A model generated the notes under the pieces. The model was not told the DNA's origin. It saw nothing but the letters and a program-made list of their open reading frames with translations, and did no database searches. The translations under genes were made by a program, and so were the position numbers. This document shows, piece after piece, positions 1 through 5,443 of a stretch of DNA of 5,443 bases. This DNA is from a virus. The stretch covers positions 1 to 5,443 of IMG/VR virus record IMGVR_UViG_3300017527_000087; one strand, given 5' to 3'. Every line of letters starts with the position of its first letter. The stretch's first letter is position 1.

Positions 1-83
1 AATTTTCCATTATATAGTCTTATTGGACATTGGAATACGTCTAGTTGTAATTTATAACTTCCGAATAGTGGTCCTACTGTTGG
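1..83. repeat. Terminal direct repeat, copy 1. It is an assembly overlap of a circular genome with a 5360-nt unit.
   Basis: Bases 1..83 (aattttccattatatagtc...gtcctactgttgg) are identical, base for base, to 5361..5443. The repeat lies inside an open reading frame that reads through the junction. Confidence 0.95.
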
Positions 84-287
84 TAGTGTTTTTACGTCTG
101 CATCTAGTTTTATTGTCCATTTGTCTGCAGGCAATGCCACTTCTGACATAAATGGTACTAATGTCCCTGCCGCCATGCTACTTCTCCATGTACTACTAAG
201 GTCATGACTACTTCTGTTGTAATTTTTTAGGCTTACTTCTTGCTTGTGTCCGCTTCCTAGTCTGTCTCCTCCTATTGTTGTCTTCAT
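1..287 (-). CDS. VP1: Major capsid protein, N-terminal segment (joins 5360 across the circular junction).
   Basis: My hand translation of the minus strand gives MKTTIGGDRLGSGHKQEVSLKNYNRSSHDLSSTWRSSMAAGTLVPFMSEVALPADKWTIKLDADVKTLPTVGPLFGSYKLQLDVF.... ATG 285..287 is the first ATG after the in-frame stop at 309..311. It lies 1 nt after the TAA of the upstream ORF. The HDLS ... G-LVP ... LPxD pattern parallels the phiX174 F N-terminus (PHDLSH ... PVIAGD). Confidence 0.9.
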   Translation of the reverse strand, partial: MKTTIGGDRLGSGHKQEVSLKNYNRSSHDLSSTWRSSMAAGTLVPFMSEVALPADKWTIKLDADVKTLPTVGPLFGSYKLQLDVFQCPIRLYNGK

Positions 288-288
288 C

Positions 289-576
289 TTATTTCTGTTT
301 GTTTGTTTCTATTAATATCATCATTACCTGAACTATTCTATTCCATGTAATTTTTTTTACTTCCGCTTTTACTCGCTTTAGGCTTGTATCTGATTCTGTT
401 ACTCTATATTTTCCCATCACTCCGAAGTGATTCCCTTCTCCATCGCTTATTACTGTAAAGGGTGTTCCTTTTATTTCGTGCCTTTCAAATCCTGATTCTG
501 TATTGTTCGTGTCTTTTGTAGATTCCGATGTATTCTTTAATGACATAATTTTTGTCTTTTGTGTATTTGATTTCAT
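289..576 (-). CDS. Hypothetical 95-aa protein immediately upstream of VP1.
   Basis: Intact ORF with strongly A-ending codons throughout. It has a protein-like core (FERHEIKGTPFTVISDGEGNHFGVMGKYRVTESDTSLKRVKAEVKKITWNRIVQVMMIL). Its TAA lies 1 nt before the VP1 ATG. An alternative start is the internal ATG giving MSLKNT.... Confidence 0.7.
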   Translation of the reverse strand: MKSNTQKTKIMSLKNTSESTKDTNNTESGFERHEIKGTPFTVISDGEGNHFGVMGKYRVTESDTSLKRVKAEVKKITWNRIVQVMMILIETNKQK

Positions 577-691
577 AATTTACCTTTCTATAGTTTTGTA
601 GATTTTTCTTGTGTATTATTTCTCCAGTTTCTTCGTCTACATACGTTGATACTGTCTTGAACTTCTTTGGATCTTCTCTTACTCGATTCAT
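485..691 (-). CDS. Hypothetical 68-aa ORF. It overlaps both neighbours out of frame.
   Basis: It starts at an ATG. The first ~40 codons (MNRVREDPKKFKTVSTYVDEETGEIIHKKNLQNYRKV) have ordinary protein-like composition and A-ending codons like the large genes. The last ~30 codons overlap ORF 289..576 and look less coding-like. Confidence 0.4.
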   Translation of the reverse strand: MNRVREDPKKFKTVSTYVDEETGEIIHKKNLQNYRKVNYEIKYTKDKNYVIKEYIGIYKRHEQYRIRI

Positions 692-797
692 ATTTATATT
701 TGATTTTTCGTGTTTTCTCTATTTCTACTAATCCTTTGCATGCTACTAGTCCTATGATCATACTTACCCATAACCCTATTTCGTATTTATTCATCAC
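588..797 (-). CDS. Small putative lipoprotein or membrane peptide. It has a signal peptide with a lipobox and a very basic tail. The likely start is ATG 792..794 (the track uses GTG 795..797).
   Basis: MNKYEIGLWVSMIIGLVAC-KGLVEIEK... has a short n-region, a 12-residue hydrophobic core, and L-V-A-C matching the [LVI][ASTVI][GAS]C lipobox, with Cys at residue 19 (codon 738..740). The tail is Arg/Lys-rich. The last ~100 nt overlap ORF 485..691 in another frame. Confidence 0.5.
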   Translation of the reverse strand: MMNKYEIGLWVSMIIGLVACKGLVEIEKTRKIKYKYESSKRRSKEVQDSINVCRRRNWRNNTQEKSTKL

Positions 798-1020
798 ATA
801 GTGTTTTTAGTATTAGTTTTTTTAGTAGTTCTTCTGTGATTGTTCCATCTACTTTCTCTCCGTTTTGGTACTTACTTATTGTTAGATACCTTGTGTTCCC
901 GTTTTTACCTAGTATTTTTAACTTCATTTTCAATGTTTTATATTTTATGCGTACCGCAATATACTCTTTTTTTTTAATATGAAAATTGGTTGAATGTATT
1001 GTTCGCCTTTTTTGCCCCAA
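787..1020 (-). CDS. Small hypothetical ORF. It is 77 codons if TTG-initiated at 1020, or 46 aa from ATG 925..927. Extent and coding status are uncertain.
   Basis: The frame is open directly from a stop at 1021..1023. The only ATG is at 925..927 (MKLKILGKNGNTRYLTISKYQNGEKVDGTITEELLKKLILKTLCDE). Its TAA (787..789) overlaps the ATG of the next ORF by 8 nt, a coupling-type overlap. An A9 run sits at 967..975. Confidence 0.4.
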   Translation of the reverse strand: MGQKRRTIHSTNFHIKKKEYIAVRIKYKTLKMKLKILGKNGNTRYLTISKYQNGEKVDGTITEELLKKLILKTLCDE

Positions 1021-1044
1021 TTAAGGCACTTGTGCCGCATTATG

Positions 1045-1070
1045 CAGCCACCACCACCTACTGGTGGCTG
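1045..1070. other. 9-bp hairpin in the GC-rich spacer just after the Rep stop.
   Basis: cagccacca (1045..1053) and tggtggctg (1062..1070) are exact reverse complements around an 8-nt loop. A second short palindrome, ggcac-tt-gtgcc, lies at 1025..1036. Confidence 0.8.
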
Positions 1071-1073
1071 ACC

Positions 1074-2028
1074 TCATTTCCCATACTTTTTTTGTAGTCT
1101 TTCTAATTTCTTTAGATTTCTTCTTTGATTCTCGTAATTTCTTACTGTCCAATTGATTTTATCGTCTAGATAGCCTAGTCTCTTATTCTTGCGTTGTTCT
1201 TCTTCTAATACTGCATAGTAATCTTTTTCGCTTTCTGATATATCAATTTTTCTTCCGTTTACATATCTTACTTCCTCATCTAATTTTTCTATCCATAGTT
1301 TCTCCCTTTGTTCTTCTGTATATATCTTATTTCTGTAATATATTGGTAATGGTATCTCTTGCCCCGTTCTCAGTTTATAAGTCTCTTTAGTCTTTTTTTT
1401 TTATACATATTTCTCCTTACGTCTGGTCTATCCATATATGCCGCTCCTATTCCCCTACTTACGAACATTTTACTATTATAATTTGGGTGTTTTTGGTCTG
1501 TTTTACTTAGGTATTTCACTATATAATTTATTGTTCTTCCGTTTACATAGTCCCCTATATATACTCCTCCATATTTCCATATCGGTTCTATATCTTCCGG
1601 ATTATCTGTCCATACTATCCCGTGCATATGTATTCTTTCTGTTCTTGTTCCTCCTATTTCTGTTACTATCCAGTGTCTTATTGTTTTCTTGTATTTCTTT
1701 CTCCATCGTTCTGTGAACCTCCTTACTGCTACTTTGCACACCTCATTATCTCTGTCATATCCTCTCAATGGTTCTGCTAGTTCTTCCAATTTTTTTAGTT
1801 CTTCGTCTTTAAACGTTAGTGTTACGAAATACGCATTTTTATTTACCCTTATATCTTCATGTAGTCTTACTTGCCATTCTCTAGCTTTCTTCTTCTTACA
1901 TTCCATACATTTTCCACACCCTATCGGTACTTCTAAGACCCTTTTATCATTAATAGGGGGTATGACCCCCCTATTTTTTTATTGCTCTTATATCGAGGAT
2001 TCTTTATTAATTTTGGATATAAACACAT
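1074..2028 (-). CDS. VP4: Replication initiator (Microviridae VP4 / phiX174 gpA-like HUH endonuclease). The full gene requires two -1 frame changes, at A7 (1974..1980) and A10 (1393..1402), to give a predicted 318-aa product.
   Basis: Segment 1 starts at ATG 2026..2028 and reads MCLYPKLIKNPRYKSNKK. Segment 2 (-1 frame) reads NRGVIPPINDKRVLEVPIGCGKCMECKKKKAREWQVRL and carries FVTLTF (motif 1), IHMHGIVW (HUH) and YIVKYLSK (the YxxKYxxK two-tyrosine motif, as in phiX174 gpA YVAKYVNK). Segment 3 (a further -1 frame, with no ATG) reads KTKETYKLRTGQEIPLPIYYRNKIYTEEQREKLWIEKLDEEVRYVNGRKIDIS...LQKKYGK. Stop is TGA 1074..1076. Confidence 0.8.
1370..1906 (-). CDS. VP4: Rep central segment as an uninterrupted ORF (HUH nuclease core). 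This is the part listed in the ORF track.
   Basis: 178-aa track ORF containing all three HUH-superfamily motifs. Its first Met sits inside the conserved Cys cluster (CGKC-M-EC). The same frame is open upstream to 1978 without an ATG, so 1906 is not the true start. Confidence 0.85.
   Translation of the reverse strand: MECKKKKAREWQVRLHEDIRVNKNAYFVTLTFKDEELKKLEELAEPLRGYDRDNEVCKVAVRRFTERWRKKYKKTIRHWIVTEIGGTRTERIHMHGIVWTDNPEDIEPIWKYGGVYIGDYVNGRTINYIVKYLSKTDQKHPNYNSKMFVSRGIGAAYMDRPDVRRNMYKKKRLKRLIN
1393..1402 (-). promoter_or_regulatory. Poly-A run (A10 on the coding strand) at the second Rep frame change. Candidate -1 or transcriptional slippage site, or homopolymer miscall.
   Basis: Frame 0 reads tat aaa aaa aaa aga cta aag aga ctt ata aac tga, stopping 7 codons later. 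The -1 frame reads aag act aaa gag act tat aaa ctg and opens the 106-codon conserved-looking Rep C-terminus. Confidence 0.6.
1952..1975. other. Perfect 9-bp G5/C5-core hairpin inside the Rep 5' region, immediately 3' of the A7 run on the mRNA.
   Basis: On the plus strand, aataggggg (1952..1960), a tatgac loop, then ccccctatt (1967..1975). On the coding strand this reads AAUAGGGGG-gucaua-CCCCCUAUU. Confidence 0.85.
1974..1980 (-). promoter_or_regulatory. Poly-A run (A7 on the coding strand) at the first Rep frame change. Candidate -1 slippage site or homopolymer miscall.
   Basis: Frame 0 reads aat aaa aaa ata ggg and stops after 31 codons. The -1 frame reads aaa aat agg ggg gtc and continues into the Cys motif. 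The run's 3' end overlaps the base of the hairpin at 1952..1975. Confidence 0.6.
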
Positions 2029-2029
2029 A

Positions 2030-3124
2030 TTACTTCTTTCCTACATCAATTCCCTTTACTATTACGTCCATTGTTGATATAAAGTTTTTATATGTATCGA
2101 TGCTTATTTTTCCATCTTCGTACTCTTTTAACGCTCTGTTTCTTGCTTGTGTTTCCGTTAACATTTTAATGTTAGTATCTGCGTTAGTTGCTCCGGATAG
2201 GCTATTTCTTCTATTTGCGAATGCATTTGTATATCCTTGACTTATATCTGCCCATAGTTTTGCTATTTCTGCCGCTTGTTTTTTACCTCCATATTCTTTG
2301 ATTAGTTTGTCTTGTGATTGTGCCAAATTTGCTTGCATACCTTTATTTAGTGCGTCTGCTTTTGTTAGTGCTATTATATGCTCCTTGTTTTCTGCTGTTA
2401 GGTCTGCTGTTTCTTTCGTTAATCTCGTTTGTTGTATTAAGTTTTTTGCCTTTTCTTTTAGTTCGTTTATCATTGCGTCATAGTGTAACCCTTGTTTATT
2501 TGTTAGCATATCTTGGTAGTCTTCTTTAGCTTGTATTAACATACTATTGTTAGCTGTTTCATTAATTTGCATTTCTGTTAAACTTGTCGCCTTGTTTATG
2601 TTTGCTATCCTTGCTCTTCCCTCGTCTGAGTCTACTCCTCCTATTTTAGTTGCTTCTACTGTTGTTTTTTCTGTTTGTGCATTTAGATTTGCTATTTGTG
2701 CTTGCATCATTCCTGCTTGTAACGCACTCCCTATATCCATTGGTGCGTGACTTGTTCCCGACGCTGCACTTCCTCCGCCTTGACTTCCTGCAGTTGTTCC
2801 GCCTCCTCCTGACATTCCATACATTAACGCTGGATTCAATCCCGCTTCTTCCATATGTTTTTTCTGTGCTCCATAGTTTGTTTTGTTCCACATGTCCATC
2901 TGTAATTCATGCCCTTGCATATTTAGATTCCTTTGGTTTTGGTGTTGTATTCCCATTAGTTCTTTACTTCTGTTGTGTGCTTTTTTTGCTCTGGCATTTT
3001 GCCCTAGCATACCTATTGCTCCTCCTGCTATATTTGCTACTGTTCCCCACATATTATTTGTATTTTGATTGTTATTATTTGCTGCATTTTGTGCTGCATT
3101 TGCTACTGTGTTTCCTATTCCCAT
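2030..3124 (-). CDS. VP2: Minor capsid / DNA pilot protein (Microviridae VP2, functional analogue of phiX174 H).
   Basis: 364-aa ORF. It has an Asn/Gln-rich N-terminus, the hallmark segment HMEEAGLNPALMYGMSGGGG, then a Gly/Ser/Ala-rich tract and a long charged helical C-terminal half. Its position between the capsid module and Rep fits the family. The stop, TAA 2030..2032, lies 1 nt before the Rep ATG. Confidence 0.85.
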   Translation of the reverse strand: MGIGNTVANAAQNAANNNNQNTNNMWGTVANIAGGAIGMLGQNARAKKAHNRSKELMGIQHQNQRNLNMQGHELQMDMWNKTNYGAQKKHMEEAGLNPALMYGMSGGGGTTAGSQGGGSAASGTSHAPMDIGSALQAGMMQAQIANLNAQTEKTTVEATKIGGVDSDEGRARIANINKATSLTEMQINETANNSMLIQAKEDYQDMLTNKQGLHYDAMINELKEKAKNLIQQTRLTKETADLTAENKEHIIALTKADALNKGMQANLAQSQDKLIKEYGGKKQAAEIAKLWADISQGYTNAFANRRNSLSGATNADTNIKMLTETQARNRALKEYEDGKISIDTYKNFISTMDVIVKGIDVGKK

Positions 3125-3646: not shown

Positions 3647-5443
3647 CTATAAATTAGGTATTATTTTTGCACTCATTTTTCTCCTTGCCGTTATATTTTT
3701 ACTTATCTGTACCCAAAAGTTTTGGCTACTCAACTCTGTTTCTGCGAATATATAATTAAACTTACTTGGATCTACATATGTTGTTAAGTCTGCTATACCT
3801 TGATTATCTTCTTTGTGATTATATCTTCTATTCAATGTCATAAACATTTCCTTGTCTTTCTCTGCAAAGTTTCCATAAGTCTTATTTAATGCACTCATGT
3901 AATTTATCCACGCTGGTTGCTTTCCCGCACTTTTTTTGCTTGATACGTAATTTGCTGTCATATCTGTATCGAACCATGCCATGTTATGTTCTGTGATCAA
4001 GTCTTGGTACCCTATTCCATCTAATGCCGGTTTGTGTAAATCGTCTAGTGTTTCTAAGTCCAGGTGCCATGAATTTGTTTGACTATAGTCTAATCTTGGT
4101 GTTAAACTTACTATCCCAATTATATAACTTGGTTCATCTACTTTCACTTCTACATATCCTCCTTTGTGTTTGTTTGTTAATCTTCCTCTTCCTGCTAGTG
4201 TTCCCATCGGTTGTTCTTCTCCTTGTACATTTGCATTTGTTGTACTTACCACTTCTTCAAACGCTACCTCCTTTATTAAACTCCCTTGATACACGGGATT
4301 TTCTTGTGCTTTTGCTCTTTCATGTGTATATACTGCATCTAGCCAATCATCATACGTTCCTCCACTTACTGCAATCCTATTAAGCATGTTATATACTTTG
4401 TTTGCTAGGTTTAAGCTATCTATTGTAAAGCTATCTCCCGTTGTGTCTACTGCTGTTATCTCATTAATTCCATTTGCTCCATCTATCCACTCTGTACTAA
4501 CCCAATTATTTGCTAAATCACTCTGGTATGTTTTTATCCCTAGTCCTTCTTGATTCTTTGTTATATAGTGTCCGTTTGCTCCTTCACTTAGACTTAAGCC
4601 GTATGGTGCTGTTTTTGTTCTGTCTATTTTAAACGATGCGTTGTTTTTTACATCTGCTAGAATATCCATTCTCATATCATCTATATTCTCTAATGGGAAG
4701 CTGAATAACGTTGGCTCTCCGTCTGATGGGTCTACTGTGTTTGCTATACTTGTTACTTGTACATTTATATCAATTGTTCCTGTATAGTTTGTTACGGGGT
4801 TTCTTGCTTCTAGAGACCATGTACCCGTACTTACTTCTGTGAGTTCTATTGTTCTCCATACTGTTGCTACTGAACCGAATTCGCTGTTTATGAAACATAC
4901 CATTTGACTTACATCAGGTTTTCCGAATGGGAATTGTTCGTTGTTTGCTGCCCATTCTAAGGTTGCGCTCAACCTGTAATCATTTCCTCCTATATTTACT
5001 GTTATCGTGTTTCCTAGTAGTGGGTATTCTTGTTGTCCTACTACGTTAAGTACTACATTTGTTGCATTAAATAGGTTATTGTTGTTGTCGTTGTGTATAA
5101 CTACTCCGATCTCTTCTTGTTTATTACTGTAGTATTGTTTGTATATATCCCAATACGCTAGATATGGTACTGCATTAAAGTATCTTCTTCTTGGGCTTGG
5201 GCTTTTTCCTAGTCCGCTTATCCCTAGATATTTGTGTATACTACTTGGATTTACTTGTTGGTTATCCCCTTTTGTACTGTCGTATGCTCCTGACCTTACT
5301 TCCATCTGTGGTAATTTCACCTCGCTCATATTCATACCTATATTTAGCATATTCATATGTAATTTTCCATTATATAGTCTTATTGGACATTGGAATACGT
5401 CTAGTTGTAATTTATAACTTCCGAATAGTGGTCCTACTGTTGG
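3647..5443 (-). CDS. VP1: Major capsid protein (Microviridae VP1 / F-protein family), body and C-terminus. The frame is open to the window edge and continues in 1..287 through the circular junction. Non-redundant extent is 3647..5360.
   Basis: The track ORF 3647..5356 is only the ATG-limited part. Upstream of that ATG the same frame stays open to 5443 and reads ...PTVGPLFGSYKLQLDVFQCPIRLYNGKLH-MNMLNIG.... Its large size and its position ahead of the scaffold-like and pilot genes fit the family. Stop is TAG 3647..3649. The joined gene is 287+1714 = 2001 nt, giving 666 aa. Confidence 0.93.
   Translation of the reverse strand, partial: PTVGPLFGSYKLQLDVFQCPIRLYNGKLHMNMLNIGMNMSEVKLPQMEVRSGAYDSTKGDNQQVNPSSIHKYLGISGLGKSPSPRRRYFNAVPYLAYWDIYKQYYSNKQEEIGVVIHNDNNNNLFNATNVVLNVVGQQEYPLLGNTITVNIGGNDYRLSATLEWAANNEQFPFGKPDVSQMVCFINSEFGSVATVWRTIELTEVSTGTWSLEARNPVTNYTGTIDINVQVTSIANTVDPSDGEPTLFSFPLENIDDMRMDILADVKNNASFKIDRTKTAPYGLSLSEGANGHYITKNQEGLGIKTYQSDLANNWVSTEWIDGANGINEITAVDTTGDSFTIDSLNLANKVYNMLNRIAVSGGTYDDWLDAVYTHERAKAQENPVYQGSLIKEVAFEEVVSTTNANVQGEEQPMGTLAGRGRLTNKHKGGYVEVKVDEPSYIIGIVSLTPRLDYSQTNSWHLDLETLDDLHKPALDGIGYQDLITEHNMAWFDTDMTANYVSSKKSAGKQPAWINYMSALNKTYGNFAEKDKEMFMTLNRRYNHKEDNQGIADLTTYVDPSKFNYIFAETELSSQNFWVQISKNITARRKMSAKIIPNL
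5361..5443. repeat. Terminal direct repeat, copy 2 (redundant with 1..83).
   Basis: Identical to 1..83 by direct comparison. Confidence 0.95.

What the first reader, a model, noticed from the sequence alone, without database searches (positions are those of the whole stretch)
1074..1402. Second Rep frame change: an A10 run followed by an ATG-less 106-codon ORF missing from the ORF track
After tat-aaa-aaa-aaa the zero frame terminates 7 codons later (RLKRLIN, stop). The -1 frame stays open for 106 codons with no methionine, so it can only be expressed as a fusion. Its text is KTKETYKLRTGQEIPLPIYYRNKIYTEEQREKLWIEKLDEEVRYVNGRKIDISESEKDYYAVLEEEQRKNKRLGYLDDKINWTVRNYENQRRNLKKLERLQKKYGK. Codon endings are A-rich, like the bona fide genes, and the frame ends just before the GC-rich hairpin spacer. 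Runs of 9 or more A/T are known sites of transcriptional slippage in bacteria and mobile elements. The catalytic motifs all lie upstream, so a truncated (178-aa frame) form and an extended form would both retain the nuclease core. No obvious hairpin follows this site.
Basis: partly seen in the sequence, partly recalled or inferred. Interest (0 to 1): 0.65.

Follow-up and report, generated by a model that had tools for sequence, protein, structure and literature searches.

The report
Microvirus Rep gene broken at A10
The start-less 106-codon frame is the conserved tail of a small phage's replication gene, cut off from the rest by a run of ten A's that is one base short; either the phage needs host RNA polymerase slippage to make its full-length replication protein, or the run was miscounted during sequencing.

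Summary
On the minus strand an A10 run (1393-1402) is followed by a zero-frame stop 7 codons later, and the -1 frame stays open for 106 codons (1394-1077, stop 1076-1074) with no usable start codon. That frame is the conserved C-terminal module of the microvirus replication initiator (VP4/Rep). It is 69% identical, without gaps, to the closest intact Rep (E 4e-48). Adding one A restores a 318-aa protein collinear with over 2,900 uninterrupted relatives.

Two facts pull in opposite directions. A sibling contig from another assembly (99.8% identical) carries the same A10, and no in-frame A11 allele of this lineage is on record. However, the window's first Rep break (A7) is A8 and intact in that sibling, and one-off homopolymer breaks occur in Rep genes of other lineages.

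No relative shares the run or the break (177 loci checked), and no frameshift-stimulating structure follows it. An evolved two-isoform device is therefore not supported.

My estimate is about 0.45 that A10 is genuine and bypassed by RNA-polymerase slippage, about 0.40 that it is an undercounted A11, and the rest that it is a defective genome or a ribosomal shift. Read-level counting of the run would settle it.

The parts
1393..1402 (-). A10 homopolymer (T10 on the + strand) at junction 2 of Rep. One extra A (A11) would read TAT AAA AAA AAA AAG ACT = YKKKKT and restore the frame.
   Evidence: The run is identical in sibling contig L015.
1370..1393 (-). Zero-frame tail after the run: AGA CTA AAG AGA CTT ATA AAC TGA = RLKRLIN then stop (TGA at 1372-1370).
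   Evidence: The same tail ends P0122, the 219-aa Rep of L015.
1074..1394 (-). The -1 frame, 106 codons with no start codon plus stop (1076-1074). It encodes the conserved C-terminal module of Rep (repaired residues 213-318), including the invariant LP.YYRN..Y...E.LW..KL motif.
   Evidence: phrog_942 match extends over residues 1-299 only when the frames are joined. AF2 predicts a folded module with pLDDT 64-85 over 210-280.
1403..1978 (-). Middle Rep frame holding the Cys cluster and the HUH nuclease core (FVTLTF, HMHG, YIVKYLSK). The ATG-started 178-aa ORF is 1906..1370.
   Evidence: (PF23343, 50-54 bits against a cut-off of 27.8), (fold matches to HUH nuclease domains).
1974..1980 (-). A7 run at junction 1 of Rep. 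The sibling contig has A8 here, giving NKKNRGVIPP as in the closest relative P0001.
1933..2028 (-). N-terminal Rep ORF (31 aa, MCLYPKLIKNPRYKSNKK...). Only the first 18 codons or so are Rep; the rest is out-of-frame read-through.
1952..1975 (.). A 9-bp hairpin (AAUAGGGGG / CCCCCUAUU) overlapping the 3' end of the A7 run. It is encoded by the conserved GG..PP codons, and on the + strand it scores as a terminator-like site.
   Evidence: (-17.3 kcal/mol, z -3.0).
1413..1419 (-). SD-like TAAGGAG (Arg codons AGG AGA) 10 nt upstream of the A10 run. It is recorded as a weak candidate stimulator only.
   Evidence: 2 found against 1.1 expected; AGGAG occurs 24 times on this strand.
1045..1070 (-). GC-rich 9-bp hairpin (CAGCCACCA...TGGTGGCTG) 4 nt after the Rep stop.
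   Evidence: DNA -13.7 kcal/mol, z -3.0.

Best explanation
The region is one gene, the microvirus replication initiator (VP4/Rep, an HUH rolling-circle nuclease of 318 aa), and not a novel overlapping ORF. Its last third (106 codons) is displaced into the -1 frame by an A-run one base shorter than the in-frame length. My best reading is that A10 is the true genomic state of this lineage. In that case standard decoding gives a 219-aa product: the complete HUH core plus the 7-residue tail RLKRLIN. Full-length Rep would then come from the fraction of transcripts in which host RNA polymerase slips backwards on the T10 template and adds one non-templated A, giving A11 mRNA and the junction peptide ...NMYKKKKTKETYK.... 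Ribosome slippage on A AAA AAA would give the same protein and may contribute. Because no relative has the run, this would be a recent indel tolerated through slippage rather than an evolved regulatory device. What is shown: the sequence anatomy, the homology, the collinearity after adding one A, and the sharing of A10 by a second strain. What is inferred: that the DNA really is A10, that slippage happens in the unknown host (possibly Bacteroidota), and that the truncated product has any role.
For: (1) The repaired Rep is gaplessly collinear with over 2,900 intact Reps of 317-337 aa. The C-terminal segment is 69% identical to P0001 with E 4e-48 and has no stop in 106 codons. (2) Sibling contig L015, from JGI sample 3300017613, is 99.8% identical over 1,988 nt and has the same A10 and the same ...YKKKRLKRLIN stop (P0122), although its junction 1 is intact. 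(3) The sibling material is a different population and not a copy of the window. L016 differs by 10 substitutions, 5 of them clustered synonymous changes, with no indels. L015 and L016 also differ from each other at 6 of 181 overlapping positions. (4) No in-frame allele of this lineage exists among about 15 billion proteins, even as a fragment: the best junction-spanning hit is 66% identical, and the window's own cluster matches only up to the junction. (5) Apart from A7/A8, the assemblies show no indel over 4.8 kb, including at the A8 and A9 runs. The terminal overlap of 83 nt fits an assembler k value, as the 123/127/77/55 overlaps of relatives do, which suggests short-read data. (6) A10 exceeds the slippage threshold of 9 or more, and insertions are favoured (PMC1088944; PMC6260861). 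Citrobacter tssM1 shows the same layout with A11 (PMC4256274). (7) No downstream RNA structure is present, which favours RNA-polymerase slippage over classical -1 frameshifting.
Against: (1) The window has a second one-base-short A-run (A7) in the same gene, and the sibling lacks it (A8). E. coli RNA polymerase slips only about 0.4% of the time on A7, so that break cannot be functional. At least one homopolymer in this window is therefore wrong or defective, which lowers trust in the other. (2) One-off homopolymer breaks in Rep occur in other lineages' assemblies, at other sites and in both directions: L179 has A9 where A10 is needed, and L184 has A8 where A7 is needed. Microvirus curators treat such breaks as assembly frameshifts (PMC9239249). 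(3) There is no conservation: 0 of 174 relatives have a break or a run longer than A8 at this site, and 3 others have an in-frame A9. (4) Only two records of the lineage exist, possibly from one project with shared library chemistry. (5) A perfectly undecayed downstream frame is equally what an artefact predicts. (6) The sequencing platform and coverage are unknown, and the k-mer argument rests on my memory of assembler settings.
Confidence: 0.45

Rival explanations
1. Sequencing or assembly artefact. The virus really has A11 (and A8 at junction 1) and an ordinary uninterrupted 318-aa Rep, and the consensus undercounts long A/T homopolymers.
For: Both breaks in the window are single-base deficits in A-runs of one gene, and adding one base to each gives gapless collinearity. 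Junction 1 is demonstrably A8 in the sibling, so a homopolymer miscount or variant reached consensus in this very contig. Comparable breaks appear in unrelated assemblies (L179, L184, and the noisy concatemer L177). Published curation practice treats them as artefacts. The downstream frame shows no decay at all. Only two records exist, and they could share a systematic bias.
Against: The same A10 occurs in a separate assembly of a distinguishable strain. No A11 allele is on record. No other indel separates the assemblies across 4.8 kb, which includes an A8, an A9 and several A7 runs. Relatives' assemblies carry in-frame A9 runs (17 of 141 Reps) and an in-frame A10 without trouble. An in-frame A11 inside a gene would itself be unprecedented among about 150 relatives. 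If the data are short-read and de Bruijn assembled, a majority miscount in two libraries is unlikely.
Confidence: 0.4
2. A10 is real but the genome is defective. It would be a recent replication-slippage mutant (with the A7 as a second hit in the window) that makes no functional Rep and was sampled by chance or persists by complementation.
For: Long A-runs are hypermutable at the DNA level (discussed in PMC1088944). The window carries two hits in one gene, and one of them (A7) cannot be rescued efficiently. No relative tolerates this arrangement.
Against: The break is shared by two strain-level variants that have diverged by substitutions, which a non-replicating genome should not achieve. The 106 codons retain every invariant residue of the family. 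From my own knowledge, the Rep (gpA) of phiX174 acts mainly in cis, which makes complementation inefficient. The window assembles as a closed circle, which implies some abundance.
Confidence: 0.08
3. A10 is real, and the frame is restored mainly by ribosomes: -1 programmed frameshifting or sliding on A AAA AAA, helped by the SD-like TAAGGAG 10 nt upstream, as in E. coli dnaX or IS3-family elements.
For: A canonical X XXY YYZ heptamer (A AAA AAA) lies in the zero frame. TAAGGAG sits 10 nt upstream, the spacing I recall for dnaX. The protein product would be identical to the slippage product.
Against: No downstream stem-loop or pseudoknot is present. AGGAG occurs 24 times on this strand, so one at a suitable distance is expected about 5% of the time. 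The window's genes lack SD motifs at their starts, and relatives are prophages of Bacteroidales, a phylum that, from my own knowledge, makes little use of SD pairing. Runs of 9 or more are better known for RNA-polymerase slippage.
Confidence: 0.05

Closest known systems
Citrobacter rodentium tssM1 (also Yersinia tssM3): transcriptional frameshifting at a poly-A tract (PMC4256274)
   Same: An essential protein is prematurely interrupted just after a long A-run (A11 there, A10 here). The conserved C-terminal domain lies in another frame with no start of its own. No SD-like or structural stimulators were found near the tssM1 site (the window has a weak SD-like match upstream; see the -1 PRF rival). 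A short form and a full-length form are predicted.
   Different: For tssM1 the mRNA heterogeneity (10-15 A) and the need for both forms were shown experimentally, and the arrangement recurs in a second genus. Here nothing is measured, the DNA length is unverified, and no relative shares the site.
Poly-A frameshifted genes of endosymbionts rescued by RNA-polymerase slippage (Buchnera mur genes with A10, Blochmannia); Shigella mxiE (T9) and spa13 (A10) (as listed in PMC6260861 and PMC1088944)
   Same: An indel in an A/T run of 9 or more is tolerated because slippage restores the frame in a fraction of transcripts. The longer product requires slippage.
   Different: Those are cellular genes in A+T-rich or virulence contexts with read-level and cDNA support. 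This is an ssDNA phage gene known from two metagenomic contigs.
Thermus thermophilus dnaX (A9) and E. coli dnaX (-1 PRF at A AAA AAG)
   Same: Two products arise from one replication gene through an A-run, and the short product ends at a nearby stop in the alternative frame.
   Different: In dnaX the in-frame product is the long one and the arrangement is conserved and functional. E. coli dnaX has an upstream SD and a downstream stem-loop, and the stem-loop is absent here.
Assembly frameshifts in microvirus MAGs (Kirchberger et al. 2022, PMC9239249)
   Same: A core gene is split into several ORFs in a metagenome-assembled microvirus and is restored by a single-base correction. The window's junction 1 behaves exactly like this.
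   Different: Junction 2 is reproduced in a second assembly of a distinguishable strain, which a random assembly error does not predict.
phiX174 gene A / A* (two Rep-related products from one gene)
   Same: A microvirus makes two products from its replication initiator gene.
   Different: From my own knowledge, A* arises by internal in-frame initiation and is the C-terminal part. Here the short form would be the N-terminal nuclease core made by termination, and the Rep families are only distantly related.

Membership tests
Microvirus VP4/Rep (HUH rolling-circle replication initiator; PF23343, phrog_942) | Profile match above the curated threshold | tested here: met
   PF23343 scores 50.2-53.8 bits against a cut-off of 27.8. 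phrog_942 'replication initiation protein' scores E 1.6e-35 over residues 1-299 of the repaired protein.
Microvirus VP4/Rep (HUH rolling-circle replication initiator; PF23343, phrog_942) | HUH metal-binding motif and catalytic Tyr motif (Y..KY..K), plus motif 1 (F.T.TF) | tested here: met
   H134/H136 (HMHG), Y169, K172, Y173, K176 and F68/T70/F73 are invariant columns in the 26-sequence alignment. The AF2 model matches HUH nuclease domains of AAV Rep, B19 NS1 and PCV2 Rep (weak E of about 1e-2, probability up to 0.99).
Microvirus VP4/Rep (HUH rolling-circle replication initiator; PF23343, phrog_942) | Single uninterrupted ORF of about 320 aa including the conserved C-terminal module | tested here: not met
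   As deposited, the gene is in three frames. It becomes collinear only after adding one A at each of two runs. All 174 relatives are uninterrupted.
Microvirus VP4/Rep (HUH rolling-circle replication initiator; PF23343, phrog_942) | Genomic context: about 5-6 kb circular genome with major capsid protein (VP1), pilot protein (VP2) and scaffold protein (VP3) | tested here: met
   The window is a 5,360-nt circle with an 83-nt terminal overlap. It has a 666-aa capsid gene hitting Phage_F (faint). GenBank relatives are annotated VP4/replication initiator next to the DNA pilot protein.
Transcriptional-slippage-dependent gene (tssM1 / mxiE / endosymbiont poly-A type) | A or T run of 9 or more exactly at the frame junction, a zero-frame stop soon after, and a homologous continuation in the shifted frame | tested here: met
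   A10 at 1393-1402, a stop 7 codons later, and the -1 frame encoding the Rep C-terminus.
Transcriptional-slippage-dependent gene (tssM1 / mxiE / endosymbiont poly-A type) | The out-of-frame run length is the true DNA state (reproducible and verified in reads) | tested here: inconclusive
   A10 is reproduced in one further assembly (L015) and no A11 allele is on record. No reads are available, and the same window has an unreproduced break at A7.
Transcriptional-slippage-dependent gene (tssM1 / mxiE / endosymbiont poly-A type) | mRNA shows heterogeneous run length while the DNA does not, and the full-length protein is detected | not testable with these tools
   This needs cDNA, ESI-MS or proteomics.
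Transcriptional-slippage-dependent gene (tssM1 / mxiE / endosymbiont poly-A type) | For a programmed (utilised) site: the run and the frame arrangement are conserved among homologues | tested here: not met
   The homologous site carries A8 or less in 141 unique relatives and an in-frame A9 in 3 more, with no breaks.
-1 programmed ribosomal frameshift cassette (dnaX / IS3 type) | Slippery heptamer X XXY YYZ in the zero frame | tested here: met
   A AAA AAA lies within TAT AAA AAA AAA AGA.
-1 programmed ribosomal frameshift cassette (dnaX / IS3 type) | Downstream stimulatory stem-loop or pseudoknot 5-9 nt after the heptamer | tested here: not met
   MFE is -1.3 kcal/mol (53 nt) and -3.0 kcal/mol (93 nt), with z-scores of 0.96 and 0.20. 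Rfam has no hit.
-1 programmed ribosomal frameshift cassette (dnaX / IS3 type) | Upstream SD-like stimulator about 10-14 nt from the site | tested here: inconclusive
   TAAGGAG lies 10 nt upstream, but AGGAG occurs 24 times on the coding strand. The motif is absent in relatives, and the likely host phylum makes little use of SD pairing (plus my own knowledge).
Homopolymer assembly/sequencing artefact | The break lies in a homopolymer and a one-base correction restores gapless collinearity | tested here: met
   for both junctions.
Homopolymer assembly/sequencing artefact | Not reproduced in an independent assembly of the same virus | tested here: not met
   For junction 2, the A10 is reproduced in L015. 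For junction 1 the feature IS met (A7 in the window against A8 in L015), so that break fits the artefact-or-variant class.

The most novel reading that the evidence does not exclude
This marine microvirus lineage keeps its essential, probably cis-acting, replication initiator permanently out of frame at an A10 tract. Host RNA-polymerase slippage would then set the ratio of a truncated HUH-nuclease-only Rep to full-length Rep, acting as a built-in throttle or a second isoform with its own role. It would be the first recoding event described in a Microviridae Rep gene.
Probability: 0.12. Interest if true: 0.6.

Novelty: new member of a known kind. Interest (0 to 1): 0.33.

Why it matters
If A10 is genuine, this would be the first microvirus, and one of very few DNA phages, shown to depend on transcriptional slippage for an essential replication protein. 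It would extend the tssM1 and endosymbiont 'rescued indel' phenomenon to ssDNA viruses. It would also give a handle on how much Rep a microvirus needs and whether a nuclease-only Rep has a function. It matters for annotation pipelines too, because curators currently patch such breaks as errors. A case reproduced across assemblies argues for checking reads before patching. If the run is really A11, the result is still useful in an ordinary way: the 178-aa and 31-aa 'genes' and the empty stretch in the ORF track are one normal VP4 gene. Even an in-frame A11 would be the longest coding A-run seen in about 150 relatives, so it would itself be a site of transcript heterogeneity.

Tried and rejected
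1. Novel overlapping gene or independent ORF. Rejected: there is no start codon and the frame shows clear Rep C-terminal homology.
2. Selection for or against A-runs in this genome. The other K-runs of three or more use AAG, which looked like avoidance, but codon-preserving shuffles show no significant depletion (P about 0.2-0.25), and a run of 11 or more at this site arises in 31% of shuffles. I dropped this as evidence.
3. SD-like stimulator. TAAGGAG lies 10 nt upstream, but AGGAG is very common on this strand, so it is kept only as a weak note.
4. Downstream frameshift-stimulating structure and Rfam elements. None found.
5. Further copies of the virus. Flank+N{8,13}+flank scans of IMG/VR and of the metagenome contigs gave 0 hits. 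Megablast against GenBank phages gave no match. Exact look-ups of neighbouring small proteins found only L015/L016.
6. Recurrent breaks at A-runs of 9 or more in relatives. Eleven heuristic candidates all turned out to be ordinary gene boundaries.
7. Short C-terminal Rep fragments in the protein collection as signs of split Reps. L178 is a circular genome linearised inside Rep. L180-L183 are intact genes cut by contig starts. L177 is a noisy concatemer. Only L179 and L184 are real homopolymer breaks, and they lie at other sites.
8. Identifying sample 3300017613 in the literature. No hit.
9. Quality check on another microvirus from that sample (L065). It is intact but has too few long runs to be informative.
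10. Solved homologue for the C-terminal module. None by sequence or by fold.
Full report
WHAT THE WINDOW IS. The 5,443-nt window is a complete circular microvirus genome: 5,360 nt plus an 83-nt terminal overlap. All genes are on the minus strand, whose composition is 45.6% A. The genes are a 666-aa major capsid protein that wraps across the window ends, a 364-aa pilot-like protein, a 131-aa scaffold-like protein, small ORFs, and the replication initiator VP4/Rep. GenBank relatives of the Rep are annotated 'replication initiator protein / VP4', with a best identity of 62%. Most metagenomic relatives come from seawater. More distant ones (47-57%) are integrated in Dysgonomonas and Bacteroides genomes.

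CHECK OF THE OBSERVATION.
- The coding strand has A10 at 1393-1402.
- The zero frame continues ...NMY KKK RLKRLIN and stops at 1372-1370, which is the end of the 178-aa ORF.
- That frame has no Met and no ATG/GTG/TTG ORF of 30 aa or more, so it can only be expressed as a fusion.
- It ends 4 nt before a 9-bp GC-rich hairpin at 1045-1070.
- No structure follows the run.
The run itself is not statistically unusual in this A-rich genome: 0.94 are expected, and 91 of 200 shuffles contain one.

WHAT THE 106 CODONS ARE. They are the C-terminal module of Rep. Joined to the upstream frames with one extra A at each junction, the gene gives a 318-aa protein. That protein matches phrog_942 in one stretch over residues 1-299 (124 bits, against 81 bits for the 178-aa piece). 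It aligns without gaps at either junction to more than 2,900 uninterrupted Reps of 317-337 aa at 61-71% identity. The segment alone is 69% identical to residues 214-318 of the closest hit, with E 4e-48 and no gaps. It contains about 25 invariant columns, including LP.YYRN..Y...E.LW..KL. The HUH and Tyr motifs lie upstream. An AlphaFold model (mean pLDDT 72.5) shows a confident HUH core and a separately folded C-terminal module. Only the core resembles any solved structure.

THE TWO JUNCTIONS BEHAVE DIFFERENTLY. The protein collection holds one other record of this virus, from JGI sample 3300017613. Contig L015 (1,988 nt) is 99.8% identical to window 527-2513, and contig L016 (2,834 nt) is 99.65% identical. 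L015 has A8 at junction 1, giving an intact N-terminus NKKNRGVIPP exactly as in the closest relative. It has the same A10 at junction 2, so its Rep (P0122, 219 aa) ends ...YKKKRLKRLIN. The sibling material is a distinct population. L016 shows 10 substitutions, including 5 clustered synonymous ones, and no indel. L015 and L016 themselves differ at 6 of 181 overlapping positions. The window's first frame change is therefore not a property of the lineage, and it cannot be rescued efficiently because E. coli RNA polymerase inserts at A7 in only about 0.4% of transcripts. The second frame change is shared.

IS A10 REAL? This cannot be settled without reads.
Points in favour of a genuine A10:
- It is reproduced in a second assembly.
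- No in-frame allele of the lineage exists among about 15 billion proteins, even as a fragment.
- The assemblies show no other indel over 4.8 kb, including at A8 and A9 runs.
- The terminal overlap of 83 nt looks like an assembler k value, as the 123/127/77/55 overlaps of relatives do. From memory, 83 and 123 belong to one MEGAHIT k-list. This suggests short-read data, in which a majority miscount at A11 in two libraries would be unusual.
- Relatives' assemblies carry in-frame A9 runs (17 of 141) and one in-frame A10.
Points against:
- The window demonstrably contains one homopolymer that is wrong or defective (A7).
- One-off homopolymer breaks occur in Rep genes of other lineages, at other sites and in both directions: L179 has A9 where A10 is needed at CRKKKAREW, and L184 has A8 where A7 is needed at ERWRKKHKK.
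- Curators of microvirus genomes routinely treat such breaks as assembly frameshifts (PMC9239249).
- The two records may share a project and its library chemistry.
- An undecayed downstream frame is what an artefact predicts.
I put a genuine A10 at roughly 0.55-0.6. That is split between functional bypass (0.45 for RNA-polymerase slippage and 0.05 for ribosomal shifting) and a defective genome (0.08). I put an undercounted A11 at 0.40.

IS IT PROGRAMMED? The evidence says no.
- At the homologous site, 141 unique relatives carry A-runs of 8 or less, typically TAT AAA AAA GAA AAA ACN.
- A dedicated IMG/VR scan for runs of 9 or more at this position found three more microviruses, all with an in-frame A9 and intact Rep.
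- None of the 174 related loci has a split Rep, although those searches keep the best-scoring loci and so favour intact genes.
- Eleven heuristic 'break at a run of 9 or more' candidates were all normal gene boundaries.
- There is no downstream stimulator.
- The SD-like TAAGGAG 10 nt upstream is weak evidence, because AGGAG occurs 24 times on this strand.
- Codon-preserving shuffles show neither avoidance nor enrichment of runs.
If real, this is a lineage-specific indel tolerated through slippage and not a conserved two-isoform device.

MECHANISM I COMMIT TO (confidence 0.45). The genome carries A10. Standard decoding yields a 219-aa HUH-core protein with a 7-residue foreign tail. Host RNA polymerase slips on the T10 template, and insertions are favoured on runs of 9 or more (PMC1088944, PMC6260861, PMC4256274). 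The A11 transcripts encode the full 318-aa Rep with junction ...NMYKKKKTKETYK.... Ribosomal slippage on A AAA AAA would give the same product. One point holds under either reading: a coding run of 10-11 A's is above the slippage threshold, so transcript heterogeneity at this site is expected whether the DNA is A10 or A11, and only the ratio of products changes.

COMPARISON WITH KNOWN SYSTEMS. The closest analogue is Citrobacter tssM1 (A11, a stop soon after, the C-terminal domain restored by slippage, and two forms). Others are endosymbiont poly-A-rescued genes, Shigella mxiE and spa13, and Thermus dnaX. The window shares their anatomy but lacks the read-level, cDNA and conservation evidence that defines those cases. 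It is a member of the microvirus VP4/Rep family by every sequence criterion except an intact reading frame.

VERDICT. If real, it is a new member of a known kind (a slippage-rescued poly-A frameshift, new for Microviridae Rep). If not, it is an ordinary homopolymer miscount. Interest is 0.33. Counting the run length in reads is the decisive and inexpensive test.

Noticed in passing
window 1952-1980: Junction 1 of Rep is an A7 run whose last two A's pair into a 9-bp hairpin (AAUAGGGGG/CCCCCUAUU; -17.3 kcal/mol, z -3.0). On the + strand it scores as an intrinsic-terminator-like site (hairpin plus T7), antisense to all genes. The sibling contig L015 has A8 here. The hairpin is encoded by the conserved GG..PP codons.
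   Followed up: partly
window 1-83 = 5361-5443; capsid gene 3647..5360 plus 1..287 (minus strand): The window is a closed circle with an 83-nt terminal overlap. The major capsid gene wraps across the ends and is 666 aa, not the 569 aa listed by the ORF finder. Relatives' contigs have overlaps of 123, 127, 77 or 55 nt, so these overlaps look like assembler k values.
   Followed up: yes
window 1045-1070 and 1025-1036: A perfect 9-bp GC-rich hairpin (CAGCCACCA...TGGTGGCTG; DNA -13.7 kcal/mol, z -3.0) lies 4 nt after the Rep stop, followed by a small GCAC/GTGC hairpin. No U-run follows, so it is not a classical terminator. It could be a site for complementary-strand synthesis or an origin-related structure in the ssDNA.
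   Followed up: partly
window, whole minus strand: AGGAG occurs 24 times on the coding strand and 25 times on both strands, against 12.7 expected; none of 200 shuffles reached 25. Many occurrences are overlapping AGGAGGAG. Meanwhile the gene starts themselves lack SD motifs. Whether this comes from codon or amino-acid bias (Gly/Glu/Arg) or something else was not examined.
   Followed up: no
window 967-975: An A9 run on the coding strand lies in the non-coding stretch between the Rep hairpin region and the 46-aa ORF (927..787), next to weak promoter-like matches on both strands. It is identical in sibling L015.
   Followed up: no
L019:6618, L070:1729, L095:1166, L065:1582, L073:1446, L107:1556: Many relatives carry a conserved A9-A11 run exactly between the capsid stop and the start of the scaffold-like gene (CCTAACCTATAAAAAAAAAAGATATG). 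The window lacks it (TTTATAGAAAGATG). This could be an A-rich translation-initiation region in an SD-independent host.
   Followed up: no
L179:640-700 (Logan SRR27853842); L184:925-945 (ENA ERZ23496726): Two other microvirus lineages have Rep broken at Lys-codon A-runs: A9 where A10 is needed (CRKKK|AREW), and A8 where A7 is needed (ERWRKK|HKK; this scaffold also contains Ns). The sites and directions differ from the window's.
   Followed up: partly
L186-L189, L191 (genome contigs): Rep relatives at 47-51% identity lie inside large scaffolds of Dysgonomonas sp. 521, Dysgonomonas macrotermitis DSM 27370, and Bacteroides, Paludibacteraceae and Candidatus Aphodosoma MAGs. They look like integrated microvirus prophages of Bacteroidales and give a tentative host-phylum clue for this Rep clade.
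   Followed up: no
L177 (ENA ERZ26869290 ctg352156, 14,358 nt): The contig holding the closest intact Rep (P0001, 71%) is a concatemer of about 2.7 genomes. Another copy of its Rep is riddled with compensating indels and stops, which is typical of a noisy long-read assembly of rolling-circle products.
   Followed up: partly
L015 versus L016 (sample 3300017613), window 527-707: The two sibling contigs overlap by 181 nt and differ at 6 positions there, and the window matches each of them at the positions where the other differs. At least two strains of this virus therefore co-occur in that sample, which probably explains why its assembly is fragmented.
   Followed up: partly
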